This document shows positions 3,047 to 46,855 of a stretch of 64,000 bases of DNA, in pieces. Every line of letters begins with the position of its first letter. Within the stretch, counting starts at the first letter, position 1. A model generated the notes under the pieces. It had not been told where the DNA came from and did no database searches. It saw only the letters and a list, made by a program, of their open reading frames with translations. Source of the stretch: Candidatus Hydrogenedens sp. (GTDB lineage: Bacteria > Hydrogenedentota > Hydrogenedentia > Hydrogenedentales > Hydrogenedentaceae); the NCBI GenBank assembly GCA_049968235.1, contig JBMFRC010000010.1:39468-103467 (forward strand), written 5' to 3'. The translations under genes and the position numbers were made by a program.

Positions 3047-3047
3047 C

Positions 3048-4196
3048 ATGAAAGATATAAAAGAAAAATTAAAGATTGGTATTAGTTGTCATACCTCTAC
3101 AGGAGGTAGTGGGATTGTAGCAACGGAACTGGGTTTAGCACTTTCTTCACGAGGACATGAAGTTCATTTTGTAGCAGATAACATTCCGTTCCGATTGAGG
3201 GATAATATTGAGAATGTTTTTTGTCATATTGTCGAACCTGTAAATTATCCTGTATTAAATCAGCCTCCTTATTATCTGGCTATGGCATCACGAATTGCAG
3301 AAGTCGTAGAAGAACATAATATCCAGATATGGCATGCTCATTACGCAATACCTCATGCAAGTATTGCCTTACTTGCAAAAGAAATGTTACCGCCAGAGTT
3401 AAAATTCTGCCTTATAACTACTCTTCATGGCACAGATATAACGATTGTAGGAGCAGACCCGTCATTGTATCGAATAACAAAATATGCAATGGAACATAGC
3501 TGTGCAATAACTGCGGTATCTAATTGGTTAAAATATGAAACGGAGCGGGAATTTCAATTATCTAAACCTGTTCATACAATACACAACTTTATAGACCCTT
3601 CCCGTTTTCATACAAAAAATAAGGTGCGTATTCCTTTTATGGAGAAAAATAAAAAAGTAGTTATGCATATTTCTAATTTCAGAGCGGTCAAAAGAGTCAC
3701 CGATGTAATTCGTGTTTTTAAAAAGATTTCCGATAAGATGGATGCTCAACTAATCATGGTTGGGGAAGGACCCGAAAAAGTCTCTTCCGTTGGGGTTGCA
3801 AGGCAATTAGGTATATTAAATAAGGTAAAATATATAGGTAATTATCATAATATTGAGGAACTTTTACCTCATGCTGATTTAGTATTACAACCCAGTGAGC
3901 ATGAAAGTTTCGGAATGGTGGCATTAGAAGCCATGGCATCGGGTGTTCCTGTTATCGCTACCAAAAGTGGTGGGATACAGGAATTAATTATTGATGGAGA
4001 AACAGGTTTTTTGTGTGAAGTAGGAGATATAGGAACTATGGCTGATTGGGCTATTCAAATTCTATTTGATAAAAAATTAAAGACAGAGATTGGAAAAAAG
4101 AGTAAAGAGAGAGTAAAAAAATATTTTAGTGTTGATAAAATAATACCTCAGTATGAAAAGTTATATATAGACACAATAAATAAATACAAAAGATAA
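3048..4196 (+). CDS. bshA: N-acetyl-alpha-D-glucosaminyl L-malate synthase BshA (GT4)
   Basis: N-terminus KIGISCHTSTGGSGIVATELGLALSSRGHEVHFV closely resembles B. subtilis BshA; C-terminal GT4 EX7E-region (ESFGMVALEAMASGVPVIAT). Confidence 0.85.
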   Translation: MKDIKEKLKIGISCHTSTGGSGIVATELGLALSSRGHEVHFVADNIPFRLRDNIENVFCHIVEPVNYPVLNQPPYYLAMASRIAEVVEEHNIQIWHAHYAIPHASIALLAKEMLPPELKFCLITTLHGTDITIVGADPSLYRITKYAMEHSCAITAVSNWLKYETEREFQLSKPVHTIHNFIDPSRFHTKNKVRIPFMEKNKKVVMHISNFRAVKRVTDVIRVFKKISDKMDAQLIMVGEGPEKVSSVGVARQLGILNKVKYIGNYHNIEELLPHADLVLQPSEHESFGMVALEAMASGVPVIATKSGGIQELIIDGETGFLCEVGDIGTMADWAIQILFDKKLKTEIGKKSKERVKKYFSVDKIIPQYEKLYIDTINKYKR

Positions 4197-7167: not shown

Positions 7168-7734
7168 ATGCAAAAGTTAATTTATTTACAACCAAATATT
7201 TTTATTATTTTAATCCTTGTTTCTGTCTTCTCTCTCCGAGTTTTTTCTGATGAAACATGTGAGACAAAAAGTAGTGGTTTGAAAATAAGATTGGAATTGG
7301 GTTCATCTTTCAGGATTGCTCATGATAGTAATGATATTGATGGTTATTTAATTTCTTCTTTTGTTGATATCGGTAAAGAACTCTCCCCTCGAACAAATTT
7401 ATCTTTAAGACTATTACCTGTTTTCGGTTATATTCAGGAAAAAAATATGGAAGATATAATAGGGTTTGGAATTGGCGGTGCTTTAAGAATTTATTTTAAA
7501 AAGAATCAGGAAAAAGGATTTTTTACAGAGATACATGAAATTGTTTGTTTGCATGAAAACAAATTTGAAGGAAATGATTCTAATGTTAATTTCTATTCGG
7601 CAATCGGCATTGGTTATCAATTCTGCCCTAACTGGGATATGTTATTAAGATTTGGTCATATTTCGAATGCGGGGATAAAAGACGAAAATGAAGGAACAAA
7701 TCTTTTAGGTTTTGGCGTGGGATATACATTTTAG
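7168..7734 (+). CDS. PagL-like lipid A 3-O-deacylase / outer-membrane beta-barrel acyl hydrolase (tentative)
   Basis: Signal peptide; ~170-aa beta-barrel-like sequence ending in aromatic F; HISNAG matches the PagL His-x-Ser-Asn catalytic motif. Confidence 0.4.
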   Translation: MQKLIYLQPNIFIILILVSVFSLRVFSDETCETKSSGLKIRLELGSSFRIAHDSNDIDGYLISSFVDIGKELSPRTNLSLRLLPVFGYIQEKNMEDIIGFGIGGALRIYFKKNQEKGFFTEIHEIVCLHENKFEGNDSNVNFYSAIGIGYQFCPNWDMLLRFGHISNAGIKDENEGTNLLGFGVGYTF

Positions 7735-17944: not shown

Positions 17945-18028
17945 GGAGGGTTAGGATAATTGGTAATCCACCGGTCTTGAAAACCGGCGCCTTCGGGCTT
18001 GGGGGTTCGAGTCCCCCACCCTCCGCCA
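17945..18028 (+). tRNA. tRNA-Ser(UGA), type II with long variable arm, CCA encoded
   Basis: Acceptor GGAGGGT/ACCCTCC, discriminator G, encoded CCA. U8. D-stem GGAT/ATCC. Anticodon stem CCGGT/ACCGG with loop CTTGAAA (anticodon TGA). 13-nt variable arm forming GCC-TTCG-GGC. T-arm GGGGG-TTCGAGT-CCCCC. Confidence 0.85.
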
Positions 18029-18055
18029 TTTTTCTTAACATTTAGGAGGAATATT

Positions 18056-19030
18056 ATGAATGTAGGAATTTTAGGATGCGGGACAATGGGACGGCTACAT
18101 GCAGAAATGGCTGGGAAATGTGGTCTTAAGGTGGTCCAATGTTCTGATGTTAATTCTCAAAGTGGTAAAGCGTTGGCAAAAAATTTTAAAGCCAGATTCG
18201 TGAAGAATTGGGAAAATATTGTAGCAGATAAAGATGTGGATATAATCGCAATAGCCACACCTACACCGTTACATTTTCCCATGCTGGATATGGCAATAAA
18301 AAAAGGGAAATATATCTTTTGTGAAAAACCTCTTTGCAGGACTGTGGAGGAGTGCAAAAAAGTTATTCAAAAAGCAGAAAAAGCAAAAGTTAAACTTTTT
18401 GTGGGGCATGTTGTCCGTTATTTCCATGAATTTGAGGCAATTCAGGAACAGATTAAATCAGGAAAAATCGGTGATGTAGGTTTTATTAAAATGTATCGTG
18501 GAGGAATGCCACCGCAAGGTAAGAACAATTGGTTCTGTGATTTTTCAAAAAGTGGTGGGGTTACATTTGATTGTATGATACATGATATTGACTGGCTACG
18601 GTATATCTTTGGTGAGGTTAAAACGGTATATTGCCAAAATCTTATAGAAAAGAATTGTGCACCTTTAGATTATTCCCAGGTAACAGTTCGTATGCAAAAT
18701 GGTGTTCTGGCTCTGGTTATCGGTACATGGGCTCATCCCTCGGGATTTCGCGTTAAAGTTGAAGTATGTGGTAGTGATGGTCTTATGTATTACGATAATA
18801 TGGAAACCCCTTTAGAAGTTCAGTTAAGGGAACAAAGTAAACGGCAAGGAACAATTGTTCCCGAAAGTCCTGTAATAAAAAGCCCTTATCAAAAAGAATG
18901 GGAAGATTTTATAAACTGGATTAAAAACGGTAAAGAGCCACGCGTTTCTATGTATGATGCACTCAAGGCAGTAGAAATCGTAAGTGCATGTCTTCGTTCT
19001 GCAAAAATTAAACAACCTGTGAATTTATAA
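18056..19030 (+). CDS. Gfo/Idh/MocA family NAD(P)-dependent oxidoreductase
   Basis: Rossmann motif VGILGCGTMGRLHAE, EKPL motif, typical length; GGAGG RBS 7 nt upstream. The ORF-track start at 17999 overlaps the tRNA and is rejected. Confidence 0.75.
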   Translation: MNVGILGCGTMGRLHAEMAGKCGLKVVQCSDVNSQSGKALAKNFKARFVKNWENIVADKDVDIIAIATPTPLHFPMLDMAIKKGKYIFCEKPLCRTVEECKKVIQKAEKAKVKLFVGHVVRYFHEFEAIQEQIKSGKIGDVGFIKMYRGGMPPQGKNNWFCDFSKSGGVTFDCMIHDIDWLRYIFGEVKTVYCQNLIEKNCAPLDYSQVTVRMQNGVLALVIGTWAHPSGFRVKVEVCGSDGLMYYDNMETPLEVQLREQSKRQGTIVPESPVIKSPYQKEWEDFINWIKNGKEPRVSMYDALKAVEIVSACLRSAKIKQPVNL

Positions 19031-19042
19031 GGAGGAAATAAC

Positions 19043-20041
19043 ATGGTTAAACTCGGGATTATGAGTTTTGCTCATTTACATGCTTATAGTTATGCACATT
19101 GTGTCAATCTAATTCCTGATGTGGAATTGACTGCTATCTGGGATGATGATAAGGAAAGAGGGAAAGAAGCTAGTAAACAATATCAAACAAATTTTGTTGA
19201 AAATTTGGATGAGTTTTTAAGTCTTCCCATAGATGGTGTCATTATTACATCCGAAAATGTTAACCATAAACCTATGACGATAAAATCGGCAGAAGCAGGG
19301 AAATGGGTACTTTGCGAAAAACCCCTTGCTACAACTATTGAGGATGCTATGTTAATGATAAATACCTGTAGAAAAGCGGGTGTGGGTTTGGGCGTTGCTT
19401 TCCCTTGCCGATTTTTAACTCCCATTTTGAAGGCTAAGGAATATATAAAGTCAGGAAAATTGGGAACGATTCTTTCAATCTCCTGCACGAACAATGGTTC
19501 ATATCCCGGTGGTTGGTTCGGTGATGTGAAACTATCGGGAGGTGGAGCGGTAATGGACCATACGGTACATGTTGCTGACCTTTTAAGATGGATGCTGGAC
19601 AGAGAATTTGATAGCGTATATTGTGAATTGGGCAATCAAATGCATAAGGGAATTTTGGAAACGGATGACATGGGTTGTTTGCAATTAGAAATGGAAGGGG
19701 GTATCCAAGTATCTCATATTGCGAGTTGGAACCGGCCGAAGAGTTTCCCAACATGGGGCGATGTAACAATGGAGTTTATAGGAACAAAAGGTGTTTTATA
19801 TCTGGATGCATTTAATCAGAAATTGAACATATATAGCGATTTTGCGATGAAAACGGAATGGGGATTTTGGGGAGATAATCCTGATTTGGGATTAATTCAG
19901 GATTTTGTAAAATCTATACAGGAGAAAAGAGACCCCATGTCAAAAGGAATTGATGGTTTGCGTTCTGTGGAAGTTACTGTATTTGCATATGAGTCGTATA
20001 AGGCTGGCAAAAGGATTAAAATAAAAAAAGCAAAATGTTAG
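19043..20041 (+). CDS. Gfo/Idh/MocA family oxidoreductase paralogue with degenerate dinucleotide-binding motif
   Basis: EKPL motif present but the N-terminal glycine-rich loop is replaced by LGIMSFAHLHAY; RBS AAGGAGG. Confidence 0.65.
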   Translation: MVKLGIMSFAHLHAYSYAHCVNLIPDVELTAIWDDDKERGKEASKQYQTNFVENLDEFLSLPIDGVIITSENVNHKPMTIKSAEAGKWVLCEKPLATTIEDAMLMINTCRKAGVGLGVAFPCRFLTPILKAKEYIKSGKLGTILSISCTNNGSYPGGWFGDVKLSGGGAVMDHTVHVADLLRWMLDREFDSVYCELGNQMHKGILETDDMGCLQLEMEGGIQVSHIASWNRPKSFPTWGDVTMEFIGTKGVLYLDAFNQKLNIYSDFAMKTEWGFWGDNPDLGLIQDFVKSIQEKRDPMSKGIDGLRSVEVTVFAYESYKAGKRIKIKKAKC

Positions 20042-35774: not shown

Positions 35775-37622
35775 TTATTTAGGTACAGGGAAAAATGTTG
35801 ACATAGCAAATTCTTCTTCAAATTCCGGGATAGTAGATAAGTCAATATGTTTAATATGCCTTGATATTTCTTTGATATTATCCCTCAATTCTTTGTTTAT
35901 TAAAGCGTATTTTGCCCCTGCCAAACTACTATTGCCAATAAAATCTATTTTTGAATCAACAATTTCTTTTGGAATAATTCCAATCGTTTTCAAATTTTCT
36001 TTGTTCAGATGAAAACCAAATGTCCCTGCAATATATATTTTGTCTATTGCTGAAAGTCCTATTCCGGCTTTTTTTGTTAACAGTTTTATTCCACATTTTA
36101 TAGCGGAACATGATAATTGTAATTGTCTTACATCACGGGCTGAAAGGAATACTTTTTTGTCTTTATTATGAAATACTTTAAAAATGACATTCGAATTATA
36201 CGTTTCTACTCTTTTACGAATTTTTTCGGGGATATTCATGTTATTTGTTAATTCTGATAACATTCTTCCTGTGGTATCAATAACCTTCATCTTTAACAGG
36301 ATTGCTAACAAATCTATCAAAGCACTTCCACACATTCCTATGGGTTCTATATTCCCAATTACCTTTATATCTATATCATCATCCTTAAATATTATTCTTT
36401 CTATTGCACCGATAGATGCTCTCATACCACACTCTATCCGTACACCTTCAAAGGCAGGACCTACTGCAGTGGATGTTGCCCATAGATTTCTTTTGTTAGA
36501 TACAACAATTTCACCATTTGTGCCTAAATCAACAAAAATAAATGAATTCTCTTCTTTTAAGGCATTTATAGCCAGTAAACCAGCGGAAATATCTCCTCCG
36601 ACAAAACCTCCAATTGCAGGGTAAATATACATTTTTGCTTCCGGATGTGTATGTATGCCTATTTCTTTTGTTGGTAGCGTAAGACTACTTATAAAAGTTG
36701 GCATAAAGGGATATTCGCCAAGTGATGAAGGGTCTAAATCTAACAACAAATGTATCATTGTTGTATTTCCTGCAATTACAACATCGTAAATATCATTTTG
36801 ATTTATTCCTGCTTTCTCTATCAATTGCGCAATAAGGTTATTAATCCCCGATACAACACTTTTTTGCATTAATTTTTTATTATCTTCGGATTGTATGGCA
36901 TACGATATCCTACTTATAACATCATCACCATATAATATTTGTGGATTCAGTTCTGATATATCTCCATGAATTTTTCCAGATACTAAATTTATAAGTTCTA
37001 CTGCAATGGAAGTTGTTCCTAAATCTACCGCAATACCATATAAACCATTATATTCTTCTTCTCTTTTTATATCTAATATCTGATTTTCAGTGTATATTAA
37101 AATATAAGATTTTTTTATATCTTTTTTAATATGTGCTATTTTTTTTAATATCTGGACAGAAACATATTTCTCACCGATGAGATTAAAAATATAATCCAGA
37201 TATGACTTTGACTTTTTTATTTCTTCTTCGATATGTAATTTTATTACATGAATAAGGGGGTTGACCTTTGTTTCAATTTTTATCTGGTAGGGTTTCCTGT
37301 ATCTATATATTTCTTTTTGTTTATCTATATGTATTTGCGGTAAATAAACAATAATGTCTGTTTCTAAAATGAATTGACATGAATTAACACGCAAACGCGA
37401 TTTTCCTCCCTCTAACTCTTGACTTCGTTTTTCTATATATTCTATTTCCACTAAACATTTTCCGCATATTCCTCTTCTACCACATGAGGAGGGAACAATA
37501 TATCCATGTTCATATAAGGCATCTATTAAAATACTTCCTTTTTTTACTCTTATTTCTTTATTTGTTGGCATAATTTTTATTAATATATCACCCAAAATAG
37601 ATTCCTTTCTTGTTATTCTCAA
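35775..37622 (-). CDS. RACo-like protein: N-terminal plant-type [2Fe-2S] ferredoxin + ASKHA (DUF4445-like) ATPase domain
   Basis: Cys pattern CGRRGICGKC...C (CX4CX2C...C); ASKHA phosphate motifs GIAVDLGTTSIAV and IFVDLGTNGEIVV; 615 aa as in reductive activators of corrinoid proteins. Confidence 0.6.
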   Translation of the reverse strand: MRITRKESILGDILIKIMPTNKEIRVKKGSILIDALYEHGYIVPSSCGRRGICGKCLVEIEYIEKRSQELEGGKSRLRVNSCQFILETDIIVYLPQIHIDKQKEIYRYRKPYQIKIETKVNPLIHVIKLHIEEEIKKSKSYLDYIFNLIGEKYVSVQILKKIAHIKKDIKKSYILIYTENQILDIKREEEYNGLYGIAVDLGTTSIAVELINLVSGKIHGDISELNPQILYGDDVISRISYAIQSEDNKKLMQKSVVSGINNLIAQLIEKAGINQNDIYDVVIAGNTTMIHLLLDLDPSSLGEYPFMPTFISSLTLPTKEIGIHTHPEAKMYIYPAIGGFVGGDISAGLLAINALKEENSFIFVDLGTNGEIVVSNKRNLWATSTAVGPAFEGVRIECGMRASIGAIERIIFKDDDIDIKVIGNIEPIGMCGSALIDLLAILLKMKVIDTTGRMLSELTNNMNIPEKIRKRVETYNSNVIFKVFHNKDKKVFLSARDVRQLQLSCSAIKCGIKLLTKKAGIGLSAIDKIYIAGTFGFHLNKENLKTIGIIPKEIVDSKIDFIGNSSLAGAKYALINKELRDNIKEISRHIKHIDLSTIPEFEEEFAMSTFFPVPK

Positions 37623-37691
37623 CTTCTCACATTTTATATGATATTATAATGAAAAACCATTGGAATTCTTATAGTTTGGAATTATATTTAT

Positions 37692-38849
37692 ATGAAAGGT
37701 TTTTGGTATTTTTTGCCTGCACAATTCAGGTCTATTATATCCGCGTGGATAAATGCTCCTGTTTTTCCGACCATTTTACAAATAGAACCTACAAATCGTT
37801 GTAACCTGAAGTGTATTATGTGTCCTCATGGTTGTAATAAAATTTCCGAATACAATGATTTATCTTTTCCTATATTAACAAAGATTATAGAGGATATATT
37901 TGAATATAAATACTTAAAGGGTGTTCATATTCAAGGATTAGGAGAACCGCTTTTATATCCTGATTTGCTCAACGCCATAAGGTTTTGTAAAGAAAAAAAT
38001 TTAGAGACTTATTTTAATTCAAATTTGACAATAATGTCAGAGGAAATAGCGGAAAAACTGGTTGAATTTCAACACGACAAAATTGCAGTTTCCATTGAAT
38101 CGGTCAATCCAGAATTATATTTGTGGATACGCCCCGGTTCAAAAAATCATTCTCTTCATAGGGTATTGAATAATATAAATATTCTTGCTAAAACAAAGAA
38201 GAAAAAGAATTCTCGATATCCAGTTATTGCAGTCCATTCTATATTATTCAAAAGTATGATAGACCAAATACCGGATATGGTCCACACTTTAAAGGAAACA
38301 GGAGCAAATATGTTGTGTTTTCAACACTTAATTACAATTGGTATTCCTGATGATAAAATACTTCCCGATGGCAAACCTATCAAAGATGAGTGTGTCCAGA
38401 ATCTTTCCATTGCTGAAAAAAAAGAAATATTACAATTAATTCGTTCATTAAATTCAGTAGATTTTGAAGTTATTCCTCCACATGATTTTGATTTTTTTGA
38501 TGAAGTGTTACCACCTCATGAAGGAATACTTACATGTTTCGATTTGTGGGAAAAACCTACAATATTAGCAAATGGTGATTTTATGCCCTGTTGTTATACG
38601 CTCGGCTATCATCAGTTTTTAATGGGAAATATTTATGATACAGATTTTAAATCTATCTGGTTTAATGATAAATATAAGGACCTTCGATGGCAACATGTTA
38701 GTGGCAACTTAAATCCTGTTTGTGCTAATTGTAGTCAGTTGTATCAGGTAACACACCCTTCTTCAAAATTATTTTTCGAAGGTAAAGTAGAAAAATTTCA
38801 TTTTTATCCTAATACATTTCTGGGAACTCAAAAATATTCTTTTTACTGA
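37692..38849 (+). CDS. radical SAM protein with Cys-rich C-terminal (SPASM/twitch-like) extension
   Basis: CNLKCIMC (CX3CX2C), GLGEPLL SAM-binding motif; C-terminal cysteines (CFDLW, PCCY, CANCSQ). Confidence 0.65.
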   Translation: MKGFWYFLPAQFRSIISAWINAPVFPTILQIEPTNRCNLKCIMCPHGCNKISEYNDLSFPILTKIIEDIFEYKYLKGVHIQGLGEPLLYPDLLNAIRFCKEKNLETYFNSNLTIMSEEIAEKLVEFQHDKIAVSIESVNPELYLWIRPGSKNHSLHRVLNNINILAKTKKKKNSRYPVIAVHSILFKSMIDQIPDMVHTLKETGANMLCFQHLITIGIPDDKILPDGKPIKDECVQNLSIAEKKEILQLIRSLNSVDFEVIPPHDFDFFDEVLPPHEGILTCFDLWEKPTILANGDFMPCCYTLGYHQFLMGNIYDTDFKSIWFNDKYKDLRWQHVSGNLNPVCANCSQLYQVTHPSSKLFFEGKVEKFHFYPNTFLGTQKYSFY

Positions 38850-38858
38850 TGGTTTAAT

Positions 38859-39959
38859 ATGCATATATGTCATATATATAAAGATGTGTTTCCTCCTATA
38901 GTGGGAGGAATAGAAAAGTTTATCTTTCAGTCTATTCAAGAACAAAAACAATGGGCAAAAATCACGGTCATCATTTGTAGTCGAAATATTCATTCCTTTA
39001 TGGAGACAAAAGGTGGAGTAGATTTTATCTATGTAGGTGAATGGGGTCGTCTTCTGAGCACTCCCATTTCTCCCCTATTCCCTTTTTATATTAAAAGTAT
39101 CAAACCCGATTTGTTTGTTGTTCACACACCCAATCCTCTTGGTGAGTTATCTGTTTTAATAACACAAAGGAAAATACCATATGTAGTTCGTTATCACAGT
39201 GATGTTGTCCGGCAAAAAATTGCTATGAAATTTTATGCCCCTTTCTTTTATAATTTTTTAAAGAAAGCGAAACTTATCATACCAACGAGTGATATTTACG
39301 CAAATAATTCACCTTTTCTGCGTTCTTTTTTGGATAAATGCAGAACGGTTCCTTTAGGTATTGATTTTCATCGTTTTTTACAATCTAATACGGAAAGAGT
39401 AAAAGCGATACAAATGAAGTATGGAACACCTTTTGTGTTTTTTTGTGGTGTTCATCGTTATTATAAAGGTATTCATATTTTGTTAAAATGTTCCCCATAT
39501 ATAAAAGTTCCTATTGTAATAGCAGGTGATGGTCCTGAAAGGAAACATCTCGAAGAAATGGCAAAGAGTACCGATAAGAAAAATATTTATTTTGTTGGTA
39601 AACTGACAGATGAAGATCTGGTCCAATATTTGCATGCATGTTCCATTTTTGTTTTTCCTTCTATAGCGAGAAGTGAAGCATTTGGTTTGTCAATTATTGA
39701 GGCTCATTCTGCGGGAAAGCCTGTAGTAGCAACAAAACTTGGAACAGGCGTTGAATGGGCTAATCTTGATGGAATAACAGGCATTAATGTGCCCCCAAAT
39801 AATGAACATGCCTTAGCACAGGCTATCCAGTTCCTGTTAGATAATGAGGACATCAGAGAAGCCATGGGGAAAACTGCTAAGGAACGAGTTCAATCTGAAT
39901 TTGACATAAAAGTAACTGCTCCTAAAGAGTTCGATTTATATCGGAGTGTAATTGGTTGA
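38859..39959 (+). CDS. glycosyltransferase family 4
   Basis: GT4 C-terminal EX7E region (SEAFGLSIIEAHSAGKPVVAT); starts 10 nt after the radical SAM stop. Confidence 0.7.
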   Translation: MHICHIYKDVFPPIVGGIEKFIFQSIQEQKQWAKITVIICSRNIHSFMETKGGVDFIYVGEWGRLLSTPISPLFPFYIKSIKPDLFVVHTPNPLGELSVLITQRKIPYVVRYHSDVVRQKIAMKFYAPFFYNFLKKAKLIIPTSDIYANNSPFLRSFLDKCRTVPLGIDFHRFLQSNTERVKAIQMKYGTPFVFFCGVHRYYKGIHILLKCSPYIKVPIVIAGDGPERKHLEEMAKSTDKKNIYFVGKLTDEDLVQYLHACSIFVFPSIARSEAFGLSIIEAHSAGKPVVATKLGTGVEWANLDGITGINVPPNNEHALAQAIQFLLDNEDIREAMGKTAKERVQSEFDIKVTAPKEFDLYRSVIG

Positions 39960-41053
39960 TGGATATATTTTCTTTTATTTATGCTTTTGCTATATTTGTA
40001 TCGTTTATATTGTCTATTTTTTTAACAGAATTGTTTCGTCAGTTCGCAATTGCTCATAACATATTAGACCATCCTCATGGGAGGAAAACACATAAACAAT
40101 CTACTCCTTTATTAGGAGGAGTGGGAATATTTTTAACATTTCATATTACGCTCTTAATAATTTTTTTGATATATCTTTTTTCATCCGATTTCAGAGAAGC
40201 CTTACCCGGAAGTTCTATTTTTAATTTTTTGGGTCTGGGTTCTTTCCAAAAAGTTATAGGTATTTTATTGGGAGGAATTATTATTTTCTTTCTAGGACTT
40301 GTTGATGATATGACAGTTCTCAGCCCATGGATAAAATTGACAGGACAAGTCATATCTGCATTTATTTTGGCATGTTCAGGTATAAGAATAGAAATGTTCT
40401 ATTTTTCTAATTGGATTTTATCCTATTTCATAACTATTATCTGGATTGTCTTATTAACAAACTCCTTAAATTTACTGGATAATATGGATGGTCTTTGTGC
40501 AGGTATATCTTTTATTTGTGCCATTTCTTTCTTTTTCTGTATTCAACCTTATGATGAATTTTTAATAAGACTCTTGTTAATGATTTTTGCGGGTAGCGTT
40601 GCGGGCTTTTTATTTCATAACCTTAATCCTGCCAAAATATTTATGGGTGATGCGGGCAGTATGTTTTGTGGATTTTTCCTTTCTACAATCAGTGTGTTAG
40701 GAACATTTCATCTTGAAGGAACACCCTCGAGAGTTGCTATTTTAGCACCTGTAGTTATTTTAAGTGTGCCTTTATTTGATACTTTCAGTGTAATATATCT
40801 TCGATGGAAAAATAACAAACCTATCATGCTGGGAGATAAAAGACATTTTTCACATCGCCTTGTAGAATTGGGAATGACTCAGCGACAGGCTGTAGAATTC
40901 ATCTGGCTGGTAGGAACTATTTCCGGTATCAGTGCTCTTTTTCTTCCAATGTTAGGTTTTAATTTTAGCGTTTTAATTATACTTCAGGTATTAGGTATAT
41001 ATATTCTAATTGTATTGTTAATGAATGCTCCCAAAAGTACCAATAGTAAGTAG
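39956..41053 (+). CDS. WecA/MraY-family polyprenyl-phosphate N-acetylhexosamine-1-phosphate transferase
   Basis: Signature NSLNLLDNMDGLCAG; 10-11 TM helices; ATGA overlap with the upstream GT4. Confidence 0.75.
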   Translation: MMDIFSFIYAFAIFVSFILSIFLTELFRQFAIAHNILDHPHGRKTHKQSTPLLGGVGIFLTFHITLLIIFLIYLFSSDFREALPGSSIFNFLGLGSFQKVIGILLGGIIIFFLGLVDDMTVLSPWIKLTGQVISAFILACSGIRIEMFYFSNWILSYFITIIWIVLLTNSLNLLDNMDGLCAGISFICAISFFFCIQPYDEFLIRLLLMIFAGSVAGFLFHNLNPAKIFMGDAGSMFCGFFLSTISVLGTFHLEGTPSRVAILAPVVILSVPLFDTFSVIYLRWKNNKPIMLGDKRHFSHRLVELGMTQRQAVEFIWLVGTISGISALFLPMLGFNFSVLIILQVLGIYILIVLLMNAPKSTNSK

Positions 41054-41073
41054 TTATAGAAATTAGGTTTGAT

Positions 41074-43974
41074 ATGAAAAAAAATAAAAAATTTTCTAAA
41101 AAGGTTAATCAAGAAGAAAGTCAAAAACTATTTTTTCTTTTCCAAAATAGTTTGGAATTTAATGAAAAAATTCTTGATATCCCTGTTTTATATTTTTTTA
41201 TTACCTTTTTCCTTACTTCCCTACTATCAGTTACAATTTTATTACTCGCTTATTTCAATTTATTAGATGGTTTGAAACCCTGGTTTTTGTCCCATTTTGA
41301 TGTATTAAATTTTACCAGATATTCCAGAGGAAATACAGATATTGGAATCGTGCTGGCAAGCCTTGTATCTGTTGCGGGTCTTTCTATAATTCATCCAATT
41401 TTCGGGATATGTGGTATCACATTGATTAGATGCTGGCTTGATGGTTACACTTATCCAACGGATAATACATATTTTGTCTGGACAATTATTTTTGTTTCGT
41501 TATCTTATATTATTAGAACATTTTTACAGAAACAAAAAATTAGGTTTGATATTCATACTATTTCATTACTCTTATTTGCATCTATCCTTATTCTAGTACT
41601 ACCTATTTCCTGGCAGATTGGAAAAAGTTATCGTTATCTTATTCTCTGGGCATCTTATGCTTTACTATTCCTATCCGCATACGGAAGTATAAAAACAAGT
41701 TCACAAAAAAATATCCTTACCTGGGTAATTTTGTTAACTCTTGGATTACAAACATGGTATGCATTTTTCCATTTCCAATACGTTTTGCCTTTTTTAAGGA
41801 AAAGTCTTTTAATGGACCCAGCGCTACGAATTAAATTTTTTGGAACAGCGGAACTTTCTAAGGAACTTATTTACCGTTTTAATATAAATCGTGCCTTTGG
41901 AACAATGCTATTTCCGAATGCTTTGGGTGGTTTTATTATTCTACTTTTGCCTTCTGTTTTTTATTGGACTATCTATCATTTATATGTGTTATACAACGAA
42001 TGGCAAAATCCCAAAAAGGAACTCATTAAAAAGAAACAGGAACGCGGAGTTTTAATACAAACGGCTATTATCTGGTTCGTTTCGACAATAATTATCTATA
42101 CAACAGAACTTTTCCCCTTAACATACACCTTTGAAGAGAGTTCTAATATTGATGTTTATCTAACGGCTGGTTTTGCAGGATTAATGAGTTTAATTCCCTC
42201 AGGAATATTTGCATGGATATGTTTTAAAAAAGGATATAAAACGGGAAAATATTTTGTTTTTACTCTTATTTTTTCATTATGTTCATTCTTTTCCTTAATA
42301 TCTCTATGGTTGACTTATTCAAGAGGTTCATGGTTAAGCCTTTTCCTTTCCATTTCTCTGTTGTCTATTCTTTTTATCTACTTTCGGTTTATTAACAAGC
42401 AAAAGAAACAAATTCTGCCATCTATAATTTTTATTTTTTTAGTAGTTATTTGTCTTATAACTATCACTGTATTGGGAAATATTGCATTTGCAGAAAATAC
42501 AGAACAGGTTTCAACAAATAACGAAACTCTTTCTAATATGAAGAACACCAACAACAATTTGAGTAATGAGAACAAAGCAGCAGAAGAAATAATGGAAAGT
42601 GGGGTGGGCGTGTCATGGGAGCATTTAAGTGACCCTTCATCTTTTCGGTTACGTTGGAGTTATTGGAAGGTAGGCTTAAATATGTGGTTTCATAACCTTT
42701 TTACAGGTGTGGGTTTAGGGAATTTTGCTCTTGCATATCCTCACTACCAGTATTTAGGTGCTGGTGATGTTAAAGAATGTCATAATGGCTACCTTCAGAT
42801 ACTTTGTGAAACAGGTATTTTAGGAGGAATTTTCTTTTTGTTTTTCATAATAACCATTCTTTATAAAATAGGAAAAAGCATAAAAGAAAATAGAAATTAT
42901 TACAGTATTGCATGGAGTATTGGGATTCTTGCATTTCTTATACATGCAGGTTTAGATATACATTTCTCCCACCCTTCTCTTGTAACATATTTCCTTATTG
43001 CACTGGCATTATTCTTAAATGAAATGAAACGAGAAGAATCAAATGAACAGTGGGACACAGAAGAAAAGGTAAAATTTTATCTTACGCCGTTATTTCTTGT
43101 GTTATTTTGTATTGTTATTTTTGCTTCTTCTCTATTTCCCTACACAAGAGACCTTGTACGTAGTAGAATGTCTTTTCTGAATGTTGGTAAAGATACAGAA
43201 ATTCCACTTGTTCTAAAGTCTATTAATTACGTTTTTACAGATGTATTTGAATATGCCATGAAAAAATCTGATAAACAACCCAAAATGTCGGCTACAATTT
43301 TGAAATTTTTCTTTGTTGATTTAAATAAACTTCGAATGTTTGGGAATTTATATGTACCGGAAGGGAATGGTAGTAATAAAGCGACTATACTTCCTGAGGG
43401 AAATCCTGTTCCTGATAATGCGGTTTTATTAGTTAAAGAACCATGGCTCCTAATTAATAGAATTCGTAATTCCAGTCTTCATTATGCGGAATATTTAAAA
43501 CAAATTGATAAAATTTTTCCATACCAGGAAGATATACCTAATTATCTTAATGAAATATATAAATTAATATTTTTATATTCTCCTTATGAAACTCATAGCG
43601 AAATTGTAAATAATTCTCGTGAAGAAATGCTTCATTGGGCAAAAGAAGCCATTCGTCGAAGCCCATACAATGGTGACCTTTATTATAATTACGGAAAATC
43701 ACTCTGGTTCTCGGCAACAAAAGATTGTGCAAACCCGGATGAGAGAAATAAGTATATTAAAATTGCTATTGAAAATTTTGAAAAGTGTGCTTTGCAATGG
43801 AAAAATATACCTTTCTATTGGGATGAATATATAGCACACATGAAAGATGCTGTTGGTTTCTTTGAAAGTAATAATCAGATAGAAGAGAAAAATAAGATAC
43901 TGGAGAAGATAGAAGAAGCAAGCCGATATGTAAAGATACTCAAGGAAGAAAGGGCAAAATTAAACCTGTGGTAA
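41074..43974 (+). CDS. large polytopic membrane protein with O-antigen ligase/Wzy_C-like core and C-terminal ~300-aa soluble TPR-like domain
   Basis: More than 12 TM helices; Wzy_C-like loop ...HNGYLQILCETGILGG...; helical repeat-rich C-terminus; 966 aa. Confidence 0.55.
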   Translation: MKKNKKFSKKVNQEESQKLFFLFQNSLEFNEKILDIPVLYFFITFFLTSLLSVTILLLAYFNLLDGLKPWFLSHFDVLNFTRYSRGNTDIGIVLASLVSVAGLSIIHPIFGICGITLIRCWLDGYTYPTDNTYFVWTIIFVSLSYIIRTFLQKQKIRFDIHTISLLLFASILILVLPISWQIGKSYRYLILWASYALLFLSAYGSIKTSSQKNILTWVILLTLGLQTWYAFFHFQYVLPFLRKSLLMDPALRIKFFGTAELSKELIYRFNINRAFGTMLFPNALGGFIILLLPSVFYWTIYHLYVLYNEWQNPKKELIKKKQERGVLIQTAIIWFVSTIIIYTTELFPLTYTFEESSNIDVYLTAGFAGLMSLIPSGIFAWICFKKGYKTGKYFVFTLIFSLCSFFSLISLWLTYSRGSWLSLFLSISLLSILFIYFRFINKQKKQILPSIIFIFLVVICLITITVLGNIAFAENTEQVSTNNETLSNMKNTNNNLSNENKAAEEIMESGVGVSWEHLSDPSSFRLRWSYWKVGLNMWFHNLFTGVGLGNFALAYPHYQYLGAGDVKECHNGYLQILCETGILGGIFFLFFIITILYKIGKSIKENRNYYSIAWSIGILAFLIHAGLDIHFSHPSLVTYFLIALALFLNEMKREESNEQWDTEEKVKFYLTPLFLVLFCIVIFASSLFPYTRDLVRSRMSFLNVGKDTEIPLVLKSINYVFTDVFEYAMKKSDKQPKMSATILKFFFVDLNKLRMFGNLYVPEGNGSNKATILPEGNPVPDNAVLLVKEPWLLINRIRNSSLHYAEYLKQIDKIFPYQEDIPNYLNEIYKLIFLYSPYETHSEIVNNSREEMLHWAKEAIRRSPYNGDLYYNYGKSLWFSATKDCANPDERNKYIKIAIENFEKCALQWKNIPFYWDEYIAHMKDAVGFFESNNQIEEKNKILEKIEEASRYVKILKEERAKLNLW

Positions 43975-43992
43975 AATTCAGGATTTTGAATA

Positions 43993-45084
43993 ATGAGTAG
44001 TATTCCTACGCAACAAAAACGAATTAATTTAATACGTGACATAATAAAGAAATATGAATGCGATGCTTTTTTAAGTTTTTGTCCTATTGATAATAGATAC
44101 TTATCAGGCTTCTCAGGTTCTACTTCTGTTGTTTTAATTACTCGTGAAAATTGTTTTTTCCTTTCTGATTTTCGTTATAAAGAACAAACTAGTAATGAAG
44201 TCTTTAATTTTTCCATTTCAATTGTTTCTGGCAATCTTGATAACAAACTCTTAAATATTGTTAAATCAAACAAAATAAAAAAAATCGCTGTAAATACCGA
44301 AAAGATAAGTTTGAGACTATCAGAAGATTTGAGAAAAAAAGGTAGATTTGAACTTATAGATGCAAGAGAAGAACTTTCACAATTGCGCATTTTGAAAGAC
44401 ACCAATGAAATAGATAACATTCGACAGGCGTGCAAAATTACGGAAATGTCCGTGTTTCATTGTACTTCTTTTCTTAAAGAAGGGGTTACAGAGAGAGAAA
44501 TTTCTGCAAGAATTGATTATGAATTTCGAATCAATGGTGCTGATGGTTCTGCTTTTGATACTATCGTTTTATTTGGAAAGAATTCATCTCTACCCCATGG
44601 TAAACCCGGTGATAAAAAACTTTCTATTGGGGATATCGTGTTAATTGATTGTGGGTGTCTTTATAAAGGTTATTGTTCTGATTTAACCCGAACATTTGTA
44701 TATGGAGCCATTCCAGGAACATGGTTTACAGAGATATATGAAACGGTCTTATCTGCACAAATAAATGCCTTAAAGGCTCTGACGCCCGAAAAGAAAACAA
44801 ATGAAATAGACCATATTGCTCGCAGGTATATATCAGGAAAAGGCATGGGAACATATTTTGGGCATGGATTAGGGCATGGTGTTGGCATGGAGATTCATGA
44901 ACCTCCACGATTGAATACAGATAGTTCAACTACATTAAAAGAAGGTTTTGTGATTACAATCGAACCCGGTATATATATCCCTGGTAAAGGTGGAGTTCGG
45001 ATAGAGGATACAGTTTTAATTACAAAAGATGGATATGAACGATTAACCACATCGGATAAGTACTTAAAAGTTCTTCCTCTTTAA
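43993..45084 (+). CDS. M24-family Xaa-Pro aminopeptidase/dipeptidase
   Basis: HGLGHGVGMEIHEPP M24 signature and pita-bread metal ligands (D...D...H...E...E). Confidence 0.75.
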   Translation: MSSIPTQQKRINLIRDIIKKYECDAFLSFCPIDNRYLSGFSGSTSVVLITRENCFFLSDFRYKEQTSNEVFNFSISIVSGNLDNKLLNIVKSNKIKKIAVNTEKISLRLSEDLRKKGRFELIDAREELSQLRILKDTNEIDNIRQACKITEMSVFHCTSFLKEGVTEREISARIDYEFRINGADGSAFDTIVLFGKNSSLPHGKPGDKKLSIGDIVLIDCGCLYKGYCSDLTRTFVYGAIPGTWFTEIYETVLSAQINALKALTPEKKTNEIDHIARRYISGKGMGTYFGHGLGHGVGMEIHEPPRLNTDSSTTLKEGFVITIEPGIYIPGKGGVRIEDTVLITKDGYERLTTSDKYLKVLPL

Positions 45085-45088
45085 TTGT

Positions 45089-46855
45089 TTACTCTATAAC
45101 TCCAAAACTTCTTTCAGGTAAAAGGACGAAATTATTTTCGGTTTTTATTTCTTTGCAATAGGTATTAGGCACTTTATTTTCGTTTTGATAATAATAAATG
45201 CGATTACAATCGTTTTTGTTTGTTAATTTTATTTTTTGTTGTTTATTAGATAAATTTGCCCAATACAGTCTATCCCCTATTTTTGTAATTTTGACAAAAT
45301 TAGGATTTGAAGTAATAACAGGGTAAATCTTATCTCCCGGCTGTGTATAGTTTGTAAAGATTTTTAATGCATAATATATCGGGAATACTTGCCAATTTTT
45401 ATCTGAATATCCCCATAAACCTATCCGCATAGGTTCTTTTAGTCCCGGATACCTCATTTCCTGTAAACACCATATACTAAAACCTGATACTCCTTGATTT
45501 AACCCATCTATTATTGCTGAATATGTATAAAGAGCACCCTCATATTCTTGCATAATTGGATTAATAGAAGGAGGTTGAAATCTATGGTCCGTTATACCAA
45601 ATTCTGTTACTACAAAAGGCTTCTTCCTATTTAGTCTACTATTTTTTATTAATCCTATACGAGTATTAAATAATTCATTTGAAAAATGAGCGGTGCTAAA
45701 ATGCCAATAGAAATGCGATGCCCAGACATCAACTGTATTGCTATAATCTTTATCCTTCAAACAGGCATCAAACCAATCTGTACCCATTGCATCATCACTA
45801 CCAATTATTTTTAGTTTTATATTATTTTCTCTGAATTTCTCTTTTAATATCTTATGAAGTTCAGTAAATTTTTGAAATCTATTTTCATTTGCTTTAAAGA
45901 AATAATTCGGTTCATTTGTTAAAGTAAAATATTTTATATTAACGAATTTTTTTTGTTTAATAAGGTAATTTAAAAGTCCAATGATAGTATTTACTCTTTT
46001 TTCTGTATTTTCCCATGTATCTTTCATACCCCAATCGACACATGTTATATTTATATCTATATTCAAATCTTTATACTCTTGAAGTGTTTTACATAAACTT
46101 TGAATTCCATCACTATCAAATGTAAATGTTTTACCATCATCTGAAGGATTCCAATCTTTGAACCAAACAAATGTTCGAACCCAGTGAGGTTTTAATTCTT
46201 TCAGCCTATTTTTGCGAATTTTTATTGCTTCTTCATTTACCCCATCTTGTTGTAAATTATTCTTATCATAAAATCTACCATCATCTTCAGCACCAAATCC
46301 AATCAACCGATGTTCTAATGGTTTTTTACTAATATTCAGGTGTAGCACATCCTCATCATAAGAATCTCTTGGGGAAAAACAAGAAAAAATCGGTTCTTCA
46401 CTTTCAATTTTTCCTTTATTATGTATGTAAATTGATACTCTTACTTTTTTCGTATTGGGAGGTGTTATTGCATATAACTTTATTGGTATACAATCTGGTG
46501 TTGGTTCTGTCAGCCTTTCTTCGACAAATTCTATTCTCTTCCCTTCTCCATCAATAAAACTTATACTAAGTCCACCCCCTATAGAATTTTCTTTCCAGAC
46601 TAACCGCATTCGGGCAGTAGCATAGACAAACCGTTCCCCGTCAACTGGAAAATCAGAAGAGATATGGTGCCATTTATTTTCTTCATTGTTTTCAGTTACT
46701 TCTAATTCAAGTATTTTTTCTTTACCCAATGTTGTGATTATCTTCTTCTTTGTTAAGGAATCCGAATTGAGCCATTGTAATTCCTGGCTTCCAATTTCAT
46801 TGGCATAATCAAAGATTACATGGACAATAAATATAAAAGTAAATAGATAATACAT
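45089..46855 (-). CDS. clan GH-A glycoside hydrolase (GH5/GH30/GH39-like) with N-terminal beta-sandwich domain
   Basis: LTNEPN (acid/base Glu) and VTEFG (nucleophile Glu) spaced as in (beta/alpha)8 GH-A enzymes; signal/TM N-terminus. Confidence 0.45.
   Translation of the reverse strand: MYYLFTFIFIVHVIFDYANEIGSQELQWLNSDSLTKKKIITTLGKEKILELEVTENNEENKWHHISSDFPVDGERFVYATARMRLVWKENSIGGGLSISFIDGEGKRIEFVEERLTEPTPDCIPIKLYAITPPNTKKVRVSIYIHNKGKIESEEPIFSCFSPRDSYDEDVLHLNISKKPLEHRLIGFGAEDDGRFYDKNNLQQDGVNEEAIKIRKNRLKELKPHWVRTFVWFKDWNPSDDGKTFTFDSDGIQSLCKTLQEYKDLNIDINITCVDWGMKDTWENTEKRVNTIIGLLNYLIKQKKFVNIKYFTLTNEPNYFFKANENRFQKFTELHKILKEKFRENNIKLKIIGSDDAMGTDWFDACLKDKDYSNTVDVWASHFYWHFSTAHFSNELFNTRIGLIKNSRLNRKKPFVVTEFGITDHRFQPPSINPIMQEYEGALYTYSAIIDGLNQGVSGFSIWCLQEMRYPGLKEPMRIGLWGYSDKNWQVFPIYYALKIFTNYTQPGDKIYPVITSNPNFVKITKIGDRLYWANLSNKQQKIKLTNKNDCNRIYYYQNENKVPNTYCKEIKTENNFVLLPERSFGVIE

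What the first reader, a model, noticed from the sequence alone, without database searches (positions are those of the whole stretch)
35775..43974. Radical-SAM / GT4 / WecA-like / giant O-antigen-ligase-TPR operon with a divergent RACo-like [2Fe-2S]-ASKHA gene
Four tightly coupled + strand genes form one operon. The gaps are 10 nt, then an ATGA overlap, then 20 nt.
- a radical SAM enzyme (CX3CX2C, GGEPLL, Cys-rich SPASM/twitch-like tail)
- a GT4 glycosyltransferase
- a WecA/MraY-type polyprenyl-P HexNAc-1-P transferase (NSLNLLDNMDGLCAG)
- a 966-aa polytopic protein with a Wzy_C/O-antigen-ligase-like core and a ~300-aa TPR-like soluble tail

Only ~70 nt separate this operon from a divergently transcribed RACo-like gene.

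This looks like a lipid-linked glycan initiation-transfer module, either PglL/O-OTase-like or a novel surface-glycan ligase. It carries a radical-SAM tailoring step and a possible ATP-dependent reductive activator. I do not recognise this combination as a described system.

The locus contains no Wzx flippase, Wzz or sugar-nucleotide genes. That argues against a classical O-antigen cluster.
Basis: partly seen in the sequence, partly recalled or inferred. Interest (0 to 1): 0.65.

Follow-up and report, generated by a model that had tools for sequence, protein, structure and literature searches.

The report
Hydrogenedentota surface-glycan transfer operon
This is a lipid-linked sugar assembly-and-transfer gene set found across one uncultured bacterial phylum, built around an unusually large WaaL-like enzyme with a periplasmic TPR domain; the radical SAM gene is a lineage-specific add-on and the neighbouring RACo gene is probably unrelated.

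Summary
The window comes from a low-GC Candidatus Hydrogenedens bacterium.

The conserved unit is three genes: a GT4, a WecA-like polyprenyl-phosphate HexNAc-1-P transferase, and a 966-aa Wzy_C enzyme. This trio recurs in five distant high-GC Hydrogenedentota lineages, usually followed by an M24 peptidase gene and efp. None of those lineages has a radical SAM or RACo gene nearby.

The radical SAM has five conserved tail cysteines, enough for one auxiliary cluster (twitch-like, not full SPASM). Its substrate class is unresolved. It heads the operon only in the Hydrogenedens clade. None of 71 out-of-clade relatives has RACo, PNPT or Wzy_C nearby.

RACo relatives elsewhere are stand-alone genes, and published genetics link this family to B12 reactivation.

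Verdict: an uncharacterised, phylum-specific variant of a known glycan-transfer logic. The proposed radical SAM/RACo partnership is not supported.

The parts
37692..38849 (+). Radical SAM enzyme (385 aa) with a twitch-like C-terminal domain. First gene of the operon in the Hydrogenedens clade only.
38859..39959 (+). GT4 (GT-B) glycosyltransferase; conserved core gene.
   Evidence: Pfam Glycos_transf_1 and Glyco_transf_4. 46-49% identical orthologue sits immediately upstream of the PNPT in five distant lineages. No NCBIfam equivalog reached.
39956..41053 (+). WecA-like polyprenyl-phosphate HexNAc-1-P transferase (PNPT); conserved core gene. Alternative start at ATG 39959.
   Evidence: Pfam PF00953, 109 bits. 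NCBIfam WecA 91 bits (cut-off 326) and MraY 49 bits (cut-off 192). PDB relatives are MraY and GPT. 49-54% identical in distant lineages.
41074..43974 (+). 966-aa WaaL-fold (Wzy_C) polytopic enzyme with extra TM helices and a periplasmic C-terminal beta+TPR domain.
42634..42813 (+). Catalytic periplasmic loop (aa 521-580) carrying invariant R527 and H570-N571.
   Evidence: R527 aligns to CmWaaL R265 and H570 to H313. It is the most conserved region, 64% identity to distant orthologues.
43138..43971 (+). Family-specific periplasmic C-terminal domain (aa 689-966): small beta subdomain plus TPR-like helical repeats.
43993..45084 (+). M24 Xaa-Pro peptidase gene, 18 nt downstream. A conserved neighbour, probably co-transcribed, with a housekeeping role.
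   Evidence: Pfam Peptidase_M24 + Creatinase_N. It follows the Wzy_C gene in all clade loci whose contig reaches that far and in 4 of 5 distant lineages, where efp comes next.
37639..37648 (.). Conserved TGATATTATA block in the divergent intergenic region. It is an extended -10-like element facing the radical SAM gene; its reverse complement is TATAAT facing RACo.
   Evidence: The core G[A/T]TATTATA (window 37640-37648) is conserved in 8 of 8 clade loci, including the most divergent, L002; the leading T (37639) is not conserved.
35775..37571 (-). RACo-like [2Fe-2S]-ASKHA gene. A neighbour by clade-specific synteny, not supported as part of the system.
   Evidence: Pfam Fer2, Raco_middle, RACo_C_ter. 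AcsV 399 bits against a cut-off of 800. Stand-alone in out-of-clade relatives. Absent near all out-of-clade radical SAM relatives and near distant Wzy_C orthologues.

Best explanation
The + strand run 37692-45084 is one operon of a low-GC Candidatus Hydrogenedens bacterium.

Its conserved core is a Hydrogenedentota-wide three-gene module that builds a short lipid-linked glycan and transfers it en bloc in the periplasm.
1. The WecA-like PNPT puts a HexNAc-1-phosphate on polyprenyl phosphate at the cytoplasmic face (inferred from family).
2. The GT4 adds a second sugar (inferred).
3. An unlinked flippase moves the Und-PP-disaccharide across the membrane (inferred; none is encoded in the window).
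4. The 966-aa WaaL-fold enzyme binds the pyrophosphate with invariant periplasmic arginines and uses invariant His570 as the catalytic base. It transfers the glycan to an acceptor selected by its periplasmic beta+TPR domain. Fold, residue conservation and topology are shown; the chemistry is inferred by homology.

The acceptor is unknown. My estimates are periplasmic or surface protein about 0.4, lipid A-core about 0.3, polymerase or other for the rest. I favour protein because the extra TM helix plus periplasmic C-terminal domain is the PglL/PglS/WsfB arrangement, not the WaaL one.

The twitch-type radical SAM is a lineage-specific addition placed at the head of the operon. It most likely tailors the sugar or the lipid-linked glycan, but its substrate is not resolved.

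The RACo-like gene is a syntenic neighbour. It most likely reactivates a corrinoid enzyme encoded elsewhere.
For: - Domains.
- Core trio orthologous in five distant lineages, with GT4 46-49% and PNPT 49-54% identical against Wzy_C 27-31%, and usually followed by M24 and efp.
- R527 and H570 align to CmWaaL R265 and H313 and are invariant.
- Conservation peaks in the two periplasmic loops (52% and 64%).
- Topology puts residues 689-966 in the periplasm.
- O-OTases share the WaaL active site and have a 13th TM plus a periplasmic C-terminal domain (PMC12800693). PglL and WsfB combine Wzy_C with a C-terminal TPR (PMC2943079).
- The C-terminal domain is family-specific.
- The radical SAM is present only in the clade (9 of 9 loci in the metagenome scan). 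None of 71 out-of-clade relatives has RACo, PNPT or Wzy_C nearby.
- 9-nt gap and conserved upstream -10-like element.
- One-cluster cysteine pattern aligned to BtrN.
- RACo relatives stand alone elsewhere. Fer2+DUF4445 proteins are genetically tied to B12 reactivation (PMC5764234).
Against: - No acceptor, glycan or flippase has been identified.
- The PglL-specific Pfam domains (PglL_A, Wzy_C_2) are absent.
- The window encodes PagL, so lipid A exists and some WaaL function is expected. I could not test whether the genome has another Wzy_C protein.
- The only solved relative is WaaL, so the fold match cannot separate ligase from O-OTase.
- PNPT and GT4 fall far below every NCBIfam equivalog cut-off, so sugar specificity is unknown.
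- The radical SAM fold matches peptide-modifying enzymes (SuiB, SkfB, anSME) as well as sugar-modifying ones (BlsE, DesII, BtrN).
- No corrinoid client for RACo lies in the window.
- The conserved intergenic element could serve both divergent genes.
Confidence: 0.55

Rival explanations
1. The 966-aa protein is the phylum's true O-antigen/LOS ligase (WaaL). It ligates the PNPT+GT4-made short glycan to lipid A-core, and the TPR domain docks to LPS assembly or transport partners.
For: WaaL is the top hit by fold and sequence. The catalytic Arg and His are conserved. The organism has lipid A and an outer membrane: PagL, TolC, FadL. The trio is conserved phylum-wide like a core envelope function.
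Against: Canonical WaaL is about 400 aa with 12 TM helices and no periplasmic C-terminal domain. This protein has extra TM helices and a 278-aa periplasmic domain, like O-OTases. No LPS-core genes are adjacent in any locus. WaaL is the only solved family member, so the best hit does not discriminate.
Confidence: 0.3
2. The 966-aa protein is a Wzy-type polymerase. It polymerises a disaccharide repeat, and the periplasmic TPR domain acts as a scaffold towards an export machine.
For: Pfam Wzy_C also covers some polymerases. TPR domains are known scaffolds in polysaccharide export (reference cited in PMC2943079). Two transferases would give a simple repeat unit.
Against: No Wzx, Wzz, Wza or OPX gene is in the window or in any related locus. 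The invariant His-Asn motif aligned to the WaaL catalytic His is typical of ligases and O-OTases (the generalisation is my own knowledge).
Confidence: 0.1
3. One reading: the radical SAM and RACo work with the glycan module, and RACo acts as an ATP-dependent reductive activator of the radical SAM enzyme.
For: The divergent arrangement has a short spacer and is kept in all 14 clade loci that reach the RACo side. One conserved AT-rich element could serve both promoters. No corrinoid client lies nearby.
Against: The adjacency exists only inside a nine-gene syntenic block. None of 71 out-of-clade radical SAM relatives has RACo nearby, and none of the out-of-clade RACo relatives examined has a radical SAM nearby. 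The radical SAM has no B12-binding domain. RACo-family proteins are tied to corrinoid reactivation. Radical SAM clusters are normally reduced without ATP (my own knowledge).
Confidence: 0.06
4. The radical SAM is a protein or peptide maturase of the anSME/RiPP type. It acts on a protein, possibly the glycosylation acceptor, rather than on a sugar.
Against: No precursor-peptide ORF lies in the 120-nt spacer or between the genes. Only one auxiliary cluster is possible, unlike anSME and most RiPP SPASM enzymes. The best sequence match is BtrN, with DesII close behind. Relatives sit with GT2, methyltransferase and GDSL genes or beside a sugar-catabolic cluster.
Confidence: 0.2

Closest known systems
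Neisseria-type general O-glycosylation (initiating phosphoglycosyltransferase, PglA GT4, PglL O-OTase); also Acinetobacter PglS
   Same: The logic matches: lipid-phosphate initiation, GT4 extension to a short glycan, then en bloc transfer by a Wzy_C enzyme. That enzyme has a WaaL-like active site, an extra TM helix and a periplasmic C-terminal domain.
   Different: The protein is about twice the size. The PglL_A and Wzy_C_2 Pfam domains are absent. The C-terminal beta+TPR domain is family-specific. The initiator is a PNPT (WecA-like), not a PglB/PglC-type transferase. No acceptor or flippase is known.
WaaL O-antigen ligase (Cupriavidus metallidurans, PDB 7TPG/7TPJ)
   Different: WaaL is 403-413 aa and lacks the periplasmic C-terminal domain. 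This protein has about four more hydrophobic segments, a 112-aa catalytic loop with a low-complexity insert, and a 278-aa periplasmic tail.
S-layer O-OTases WsfB and WsaB/WsaA (Paenibacillus, Geobacillus)
   Same: Wzy_C is combined with a TPR module, either fused (WsfB) or as a separate partner (WsaA) (PMC2943079).
   Different: Those are Gram-positive S-layer systems set in large glycan clusters with sugar-nucleotide genes. This one is a diderm with a minimal three-gene core.
BtrN, the twitch-domain radical SAM dehydrogenase of butirosin biosynthesis (PDB 4M7S/4M7T)
   Same: It is the best PDB sequence match (E 1.6e-15). The C...C...CxxC cysteines of the tail align with the invariant cysteines here, consistent with one Cys4 auxiliary cluster.
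RACo/RamA/AcsV corrinoid reductive activases and Fer2+DUF4445 B12-reactivation proteins
   Same: The domain architecture is the same: Fer2 + Raco_middle + ASKHA C-terminal domain.
   Different: It scores below the AcsV and RamA cut-offs (399 against 800, 129 against 500). No corrinoid protein or methyltransferase was found in the window.

Membership tests
O-antigen ligase superfamily (Pfam Wzy_C, WaaL-type GT-C fold) | Wzy_C profile match above the gathering score | tested here: met
   72.6 bits against a cut-off of 31.7. 21 of 21 family members match.
O-antigen ligase superfamily (Pfam Wzy_C, WaaL-type GT-C fold) | WaaL-like transmembrane fold | tested here: met
O-antigen ligase superfamily (Pfam Wzy_C, WaaL-type GT-C fold) | Conserved periplasmic Arg and catalytic His | tested here: met
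   R527 and H570 align to CmWaaL R265 and H313 and are invariant in 21 sequences. The functional role is taken from PMC12800693.
Canonical WaaL (lipid A-core ligase) | About 400 aa, 12 TM helices, cytoplasmic C-terminus, no extra soluble domain | tested here: not met
   966 aa and 16 hydrophobic segments. The extra TM at 670-688 places a 278-aa domain in the periplasm.
Canonical WaaL (lipid A-core ligase) | Lipid A-core is the acceptor | not testable with these tools
   Needs LPS analysis. PagL in the window shows only that lipid A exists.
PglL/PglS-type O-oligosaccharyltransferase | Additional TM helix plus periplasmic C-terminal domain after the WaaL-like core | tested here: met
   Hydropathy count anchored on the WaaL-homologous loop. 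PglS architecture described in PMC12800693. This is a topology inference, not an experiment.
PglL/PglS-type O-oligosaccharyltransferase | PglL-specific sequence domains (PglL_A, Wzy_C_2) | tested here: not met
   Only Wzy_C is found at E<=0.1 in all 21 members.
PglL/PglS-type O-oligosaccharyltransferase | Transfers glycan to Ser/Thr of proteins | not testable with these tools
   Needs glycoproteomics or reconstitution.
Wzy-dependent polymerisation system | Wzx flippase and Wzz/OPX partners encoded with the polymerase | tested here: not met
   None in the 64-kb window or in any related locus.
WecA (TIGR02380) | Score above the equivalog cut-off | tested here: not met
   91.1 bits against 326. 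The PNPT superfamily Pfam PF00953 is met at 109 bits.
MraY (TIGR00445) | Score above the equivalog cut-off | tested here: not met
   49.4 bits against 192.
Radical SAM superfamily | CX3CX2C cluster motif and Radical_SAM profile | tested here: met
   C37/C41/C44 are invariant. PF04055 scores 59.6 bits.
Full SPASM domain (two auxiliary clusters) | Seven-Cys motif including CX2CX5CX3C | tested here: not met
   Only five conserved tail Cys (C282, C300, C301, C344, C347). After CX2C there are no further Cys. The motif definition is my own knowledge.
Twitch-domain radical SAM (BtrN-like) | Four Cys aligned with the single auxiliary cluster ligands | tested here: met
   The profile alignment to 4M7S/4M7T aligns C..C..CxxC. 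BtrN has one Cys4 auxiliary cluster (PMC10337720).
Twitch-domain radical SAM (BtrN-like) | BtrN is the closest overall fold, and the enzyme is a carbohydrate dehydrogenase | tested here: inconclusive
RACo/AcsV/RamA corrinoid reductive activase | Fer2 + middle + ASKHA architecture | tested here: met
RACo/AcsV/RamA corrinoid reductive activase | Score above the NCBIfam cut-offs | tested here: not met
   AcsV 399 against 800; RamA 129 against 500.
RACo/AcsV/RamA corrinoid reductive activase | Encoded with a corrinoid protein or methyltransferase client | tested here: not met
   No corrinoid-related Pfam domain among the >=150-aa ORFs scanned across the window. The client may be elsewhere in the genome.

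The most novel reading that the evidence does not exclude
The Hydrogenedens lineage has recruited a one-cluster twitch radical SAM enzyme to modify a polyprenyl-diphosphate-linked (or nucleotide-linked) sugar. A phylum-specific giant WaaL-fold enzyme with a unique periplasmic beta+TPR domain then transfers that sugar to proteins. That would be a previously undescribed general O-glycosylation system carrying radical chemistry on the glycan. In the most extreme version, the divergent RACo-like ATPase supplies low-potential electrons to the radical SAM.
Probability: 0.12. Interest if true: 0.65.

Novelty: new variant of a known kind. Interest (0 to 1): 0.36.

Why it matters
Hydrogenedentota are uncultured and common in anaerobic digesters, and nothing is known about their envelope.

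A three-gene glycan module kept next to housekeeping genes across the phylum is probably a core envelope feature. Its transferase carries a periplasmic domain found almost nowhere else. The module is small enough to reconstitute in E. coli.

If the acceptor is protein, this would add a new O-oligosaccharyltransferase lineage with a distinct acceptor-recognition domain, which could be useful for bioconjugation. If the acceptor is lipid A-core, it would show a new WaaL architecture.

The radical SAM add-on could reveal anaerobic radical tailoring of a surface glycan.

The negative result also matters. RACo-like genes next to non-corrinoid genes should not be read as functional partners without evidence beyond shared synteny.

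Tried and rejected
- Promoter and terminator consensus scans gave counts equal to shuffled controls, so they were uninformative.
- Rfam found only a tRNA in the window. There is no riboswitch, cobalamin or otherwise, near the locus.
- The genome-contig scan with RACo returned a single close locus, Ca. Hydrogenedens terephthalaticus. It named the organism but gave no breadth.
- The AFDB50 fold library was unavailable.
- The WaaL structure paper could not be read. Residue roles rest on PMC12800693 and my alignment.
- I looked for a RiPP precursor ORF in the spacer and found none.
- I looked for a corrinoid client of RACo across the window and found none.
- I considered the convergent class I/II aminotransferase as a partner for a keto-sugar product. 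I rejected it because it is not a DegT-type sugar aminotransferase and scores best against amino-acid aminotransferases.
- I considered a link between the GT4 and EF-P modification, because efp follows in other lineages. I rejected it because aroQ-pepP-efp is a common housekeeping gene order (my own knowledge) and efp is absent here.
Full report
**Observation**

The six ORFs are where the finding puts them:

| Gene | Coordinates | Strand | Length |
|---|---|---|---|
| RACo-like | 35775-37622 | - | 615 aa |
| Radical SAM | 37692-38849 | + | 385 aa |
| GT4 | 38859-39959 | + | 366 aa |
| PNPT | 39956-41053 | + | 365 aa |
| Wzy_C protein | 41074-43974 | + | 966 aa |

Pfam confirms each domain. NCBIfam places none of them in a characterised equivalog. 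The best scores against their cut-offs are AcsV 399/800, W-cofactor maturase 129/380, WecA 91/326 and MraY 49/192.

The junctions are as follows:
- Radical SAM to GT4: 9 nt.
- GT4/PNPT: an overlap reading TTGATG.
- PNPT to Wzy_C: 20 nt.
- Wzy_C to M24: 18 nt.

Orthologue lengths (601-607 aa) suggest that RACo starts at the ATG at 37571. That gives a spacer of about 120 nt.

Pfam scans of the window's >=150-aa ORFs found no Wzx, Wzz or sugar-nucleotide gene.

**Organism**

The 966-aa protein is identical to one on a GenBank MAG contig. The RACo neighbourhood matches Candidatus Hydrogenedens terephthalaticus at 76%. Every named homologue is from Hydrogenedentota (taxonomy).

The window is 32% GC. 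It encodes TolC, RND efflux, FadL and PagL proteins and peptidoglycan enzymes, so the organism is a diderm with lipid A.

**What is conserved**

Homologues of the 966-aa protein are few: 23 in a word-indexed search of 5.8 billion proteins.

In the low-GC clade, a nine-gene block is syntenic in every locus. The block is NUDIX-MBL, aminotransferase, RACo, radical SAM, GT4, PNPT, Wzy_C, M24 and a GH-like gene. Identity to the 966-aa protein is 47-79% in this clade. The metagenome scan added nine more such loci.

In five distant lineages the picture differs. These have 54-68% GC and 25-31% identity to the 966-aa protein. Only GT4 (one to three copies), PNPT and Wzy_C remain together. They are usually followed by aroQ, M24 and efp, and there is no radical SAM or RACo.

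In those clusters the GT4 and PNPT are 46-54% identical to the window proteins. That is much higher than for the Wzy_C protein. The conserved functional unit is therefore the trio.

**The 966-aa enzyme**

- **Model quality:** an AF2 model built on 21 sequences is confident (pLDDT 81, pTM 0.82).
- **Sequence:** the family profile hits only WaaL significantly in the PDB (E 2.8e-8).
- **Active site:** R527 and H570-N571 align to CmWaaL R265 and H313-N314. They are among 55 invariant residues.
- **Conservation pattern:** identity to distant orthologues peaks in two periplasmic loops, 233-277 (52%) and 521-580 (64%). The C-terminal domain is always present but diverges fast, at 18-22%.
- **Topology:** counting from the WaaL-homologous loop, three TM helices return the chain to the cytoplasm. 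A fourth, at 670-688, carries residues 689-966 back to the periplasm.
- **Precedent:** this is the arrangement described for the O-OTase PglS (PMC12800693). PglL and WsfB are reported to combine Wzy_C with a C-terminal TPR (PMC2943079).
- **Limits of the resemblance:** the PglL-specific Pfam domains are absent.
- **Distribution of the tail:** an exhaustive search with the tail found 82 matches among 1.84 billion representatives, almost all at the C-terminus of 850-1010-aa proteins. Ten of ten tested carry Wzy_C centrally.

**The radical SAM**

The family is narrow. Clade orthologues are 59-90% identical, a small group is at 36-40%, and the rest are generic relatives.

There are eight invariant cysteines: the CX3CX2C triad plus five in the tail. 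That is enough for one auxiliary cluster.

The best PDB sequence match is BtrN (E 1.6e-15) with the tail cysteines aligned. DesII also ranks high. BtrN has one Cys4 auxiliary cluster and oxidises a secondary alcohol (PMC10337720).

Out-of-clade relatives sit in varied contexts:
- Next to an MFS sugar transporter in a fucose-type catabolic cluster.
- Next to URO-D, HTH and methyltransferase genes.
- Among further radical SAM paralogues, methyltransferases, a GT2 fragment and a GDSL hydrolase.

None of the 71 has RACo, PNPT or Wzy_C within 8 kb.

In the clade, the gene lies 9 nt upstream of GT4. It sits behind a conserved TGATATTATA element, an extended -10-like motif 43 nt before the ATG. There is no precursor-peptide ORF nearby.

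**RACo**

The family is very large, with more than 7,600 hits at E<=1e-30. A 35%-identical relative in another Hydrogenedentota follows a BtuFCD-like importer and a glycoside hydrolase. A Lentisphaerae relative is stand-alone. Neither has a radical SAM nearby.

Price et al. 2018 showed by fitness genetics that Fer2+DUF4445 proteins support B12-dependent methionine synthases lacking the activation domain (PMC5764234).

No corrinoid client lies in the window. The radical SAM has no B12-binding domain.

The adjacency is therefore explained by synteny. A functional link is neither supported nor strictly excluded. The reverse complement of the conserved intergenic element is a perfect TATAAT facing RACo.

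**Mechanism**

Shown here:
- The fold, the conserved active-site residues and the periplasmic tail of the 966-aa enzyme.
- The orthology and tight coupling of the trio.
- The lineage-restricted presence of the radical SAM.

Inferred:
- The PNPT makes Und-PP-HexNAc.
- The GT4 adds a sugar.
- An unlinked flippase exports the product.
- The WaaL-fold enzyme transfers the glycan en bloc to an acceptor chosen by the beta+TPR domain.

I favour protein as the acceptor (about 0.4) over lipid A-core (about 0.3) because of the O-OTase-like architecture. The data do not decide between them.

**Novelty**

The logic is known from Pgl-type O-glycosylation and WaaL ligation. Three things are new:
- A phylum-restricted giant enzyme family with a unique periplasmic domain.
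- A minimal, conserved three-gene core kept beside housekeeping genes.
- A twitch radical SAM placed at the head of the operon in one lineage.

I found nothing in the held literature on Hydrogenedentota envelope glycans.

Noticed in passing
window 810-4196 (+): A bacillithiol biosynthesis operon, bshC - bshB (PIG-L deacetylase) - bshA (GT4), preceded by a SAM methyltransferase at 89-832. A PIG-L + GT4 pair also lies near the RACo relative in L018 (18146-20024).
   Followed up: no
window 7168-7734 (+): A PagL-family lipid A 3-O-deacylase, which shows that the organism makes lipid A. This keeps the WaaL reading of the 966-aa protein alive.
   Followed up: partly
window 37639-37648: A TGATATTATA block whose core G[A/T]TATTATA (37640-37648) is conserved across 8 clade loci. 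It reads as an extended -10 towards the radical SAM, and its reverse complement is a perfect TATAAT towards RACo, so the divergent promoters may overlap.
   Followed up: partly
window 42478-42633 (aa 469-520 of the 966-aa protein): An Asn/Glu-rich low-complexity insert in the catalytic periplasmic loop. It is disordered in the model (pLDDT 24-40) and poorly conserved (16% identity to distant orthologues). It makes the loop 112 aa long.
   Followed up: no
window 41428-41466 and 41797-41922 (aa 119-131 and 242-283): Two further invariant periplasmic motifs, RxWLDGYTYPTDN and R..ELxxRxNxNRAFGxxxFPN. They lie outside the Pfam Wzy_C region and have no assigned role. They may form part of the donor or acceptor site.
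   Followed up: no
L003, L006, L007, L009 (downstream of the Wzy_C gene): In high-GC Hydrogenedentota the trio is followed by (aroQ)-M24 peptidase-efp and then his/trp or accBC genes, a housekeeping context. In the window, efp is missing and a GH-like gene plus an RND efflux operon follow instead.
   Followed up: partly
L018 4424-12469: A distant Hydrogenedentota RACo relative follows a Peripla_BP_2/ABC/FecCD (BtuFCD-like) importer and a GH14/GH42-like gene. A nitroreductase-family gene follows it. This hints at a cobalamin-related context.
   Followed up: no
L007 1-3586: About 6 kb upstream of the trio in one distant lineage lie an LPG_synthase_TM gene, an unrelated radical SAM and a carbamoyltransferase. 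The radical SAM gave no tblastn match to the window enzyme.
   Followed up: no
window 45089-46855 (-): A 588-aa protein with only a sub-threshold GH59 hit and no NCBIfam match. It is conserved in synteny throughout the clade (50-77% identity).
   Followed up: no
window versus L003-L011: There is a sharp GC split: 32-36% in the Hydrogenedens clade against 54-68% in other Hydrogenedentota loci. PNPT and GT4 nevertheless stay about 50% identical.
   Followed up: no
window 17945-20041: A tRNA gene (17945-18025) overlaps the predicted TTG start of the first of two tandem GFO/IDH/MocA oxidoreductase ORFs (17999-19030), so that ORF's real start is probably further downstream.
   Followed up: no
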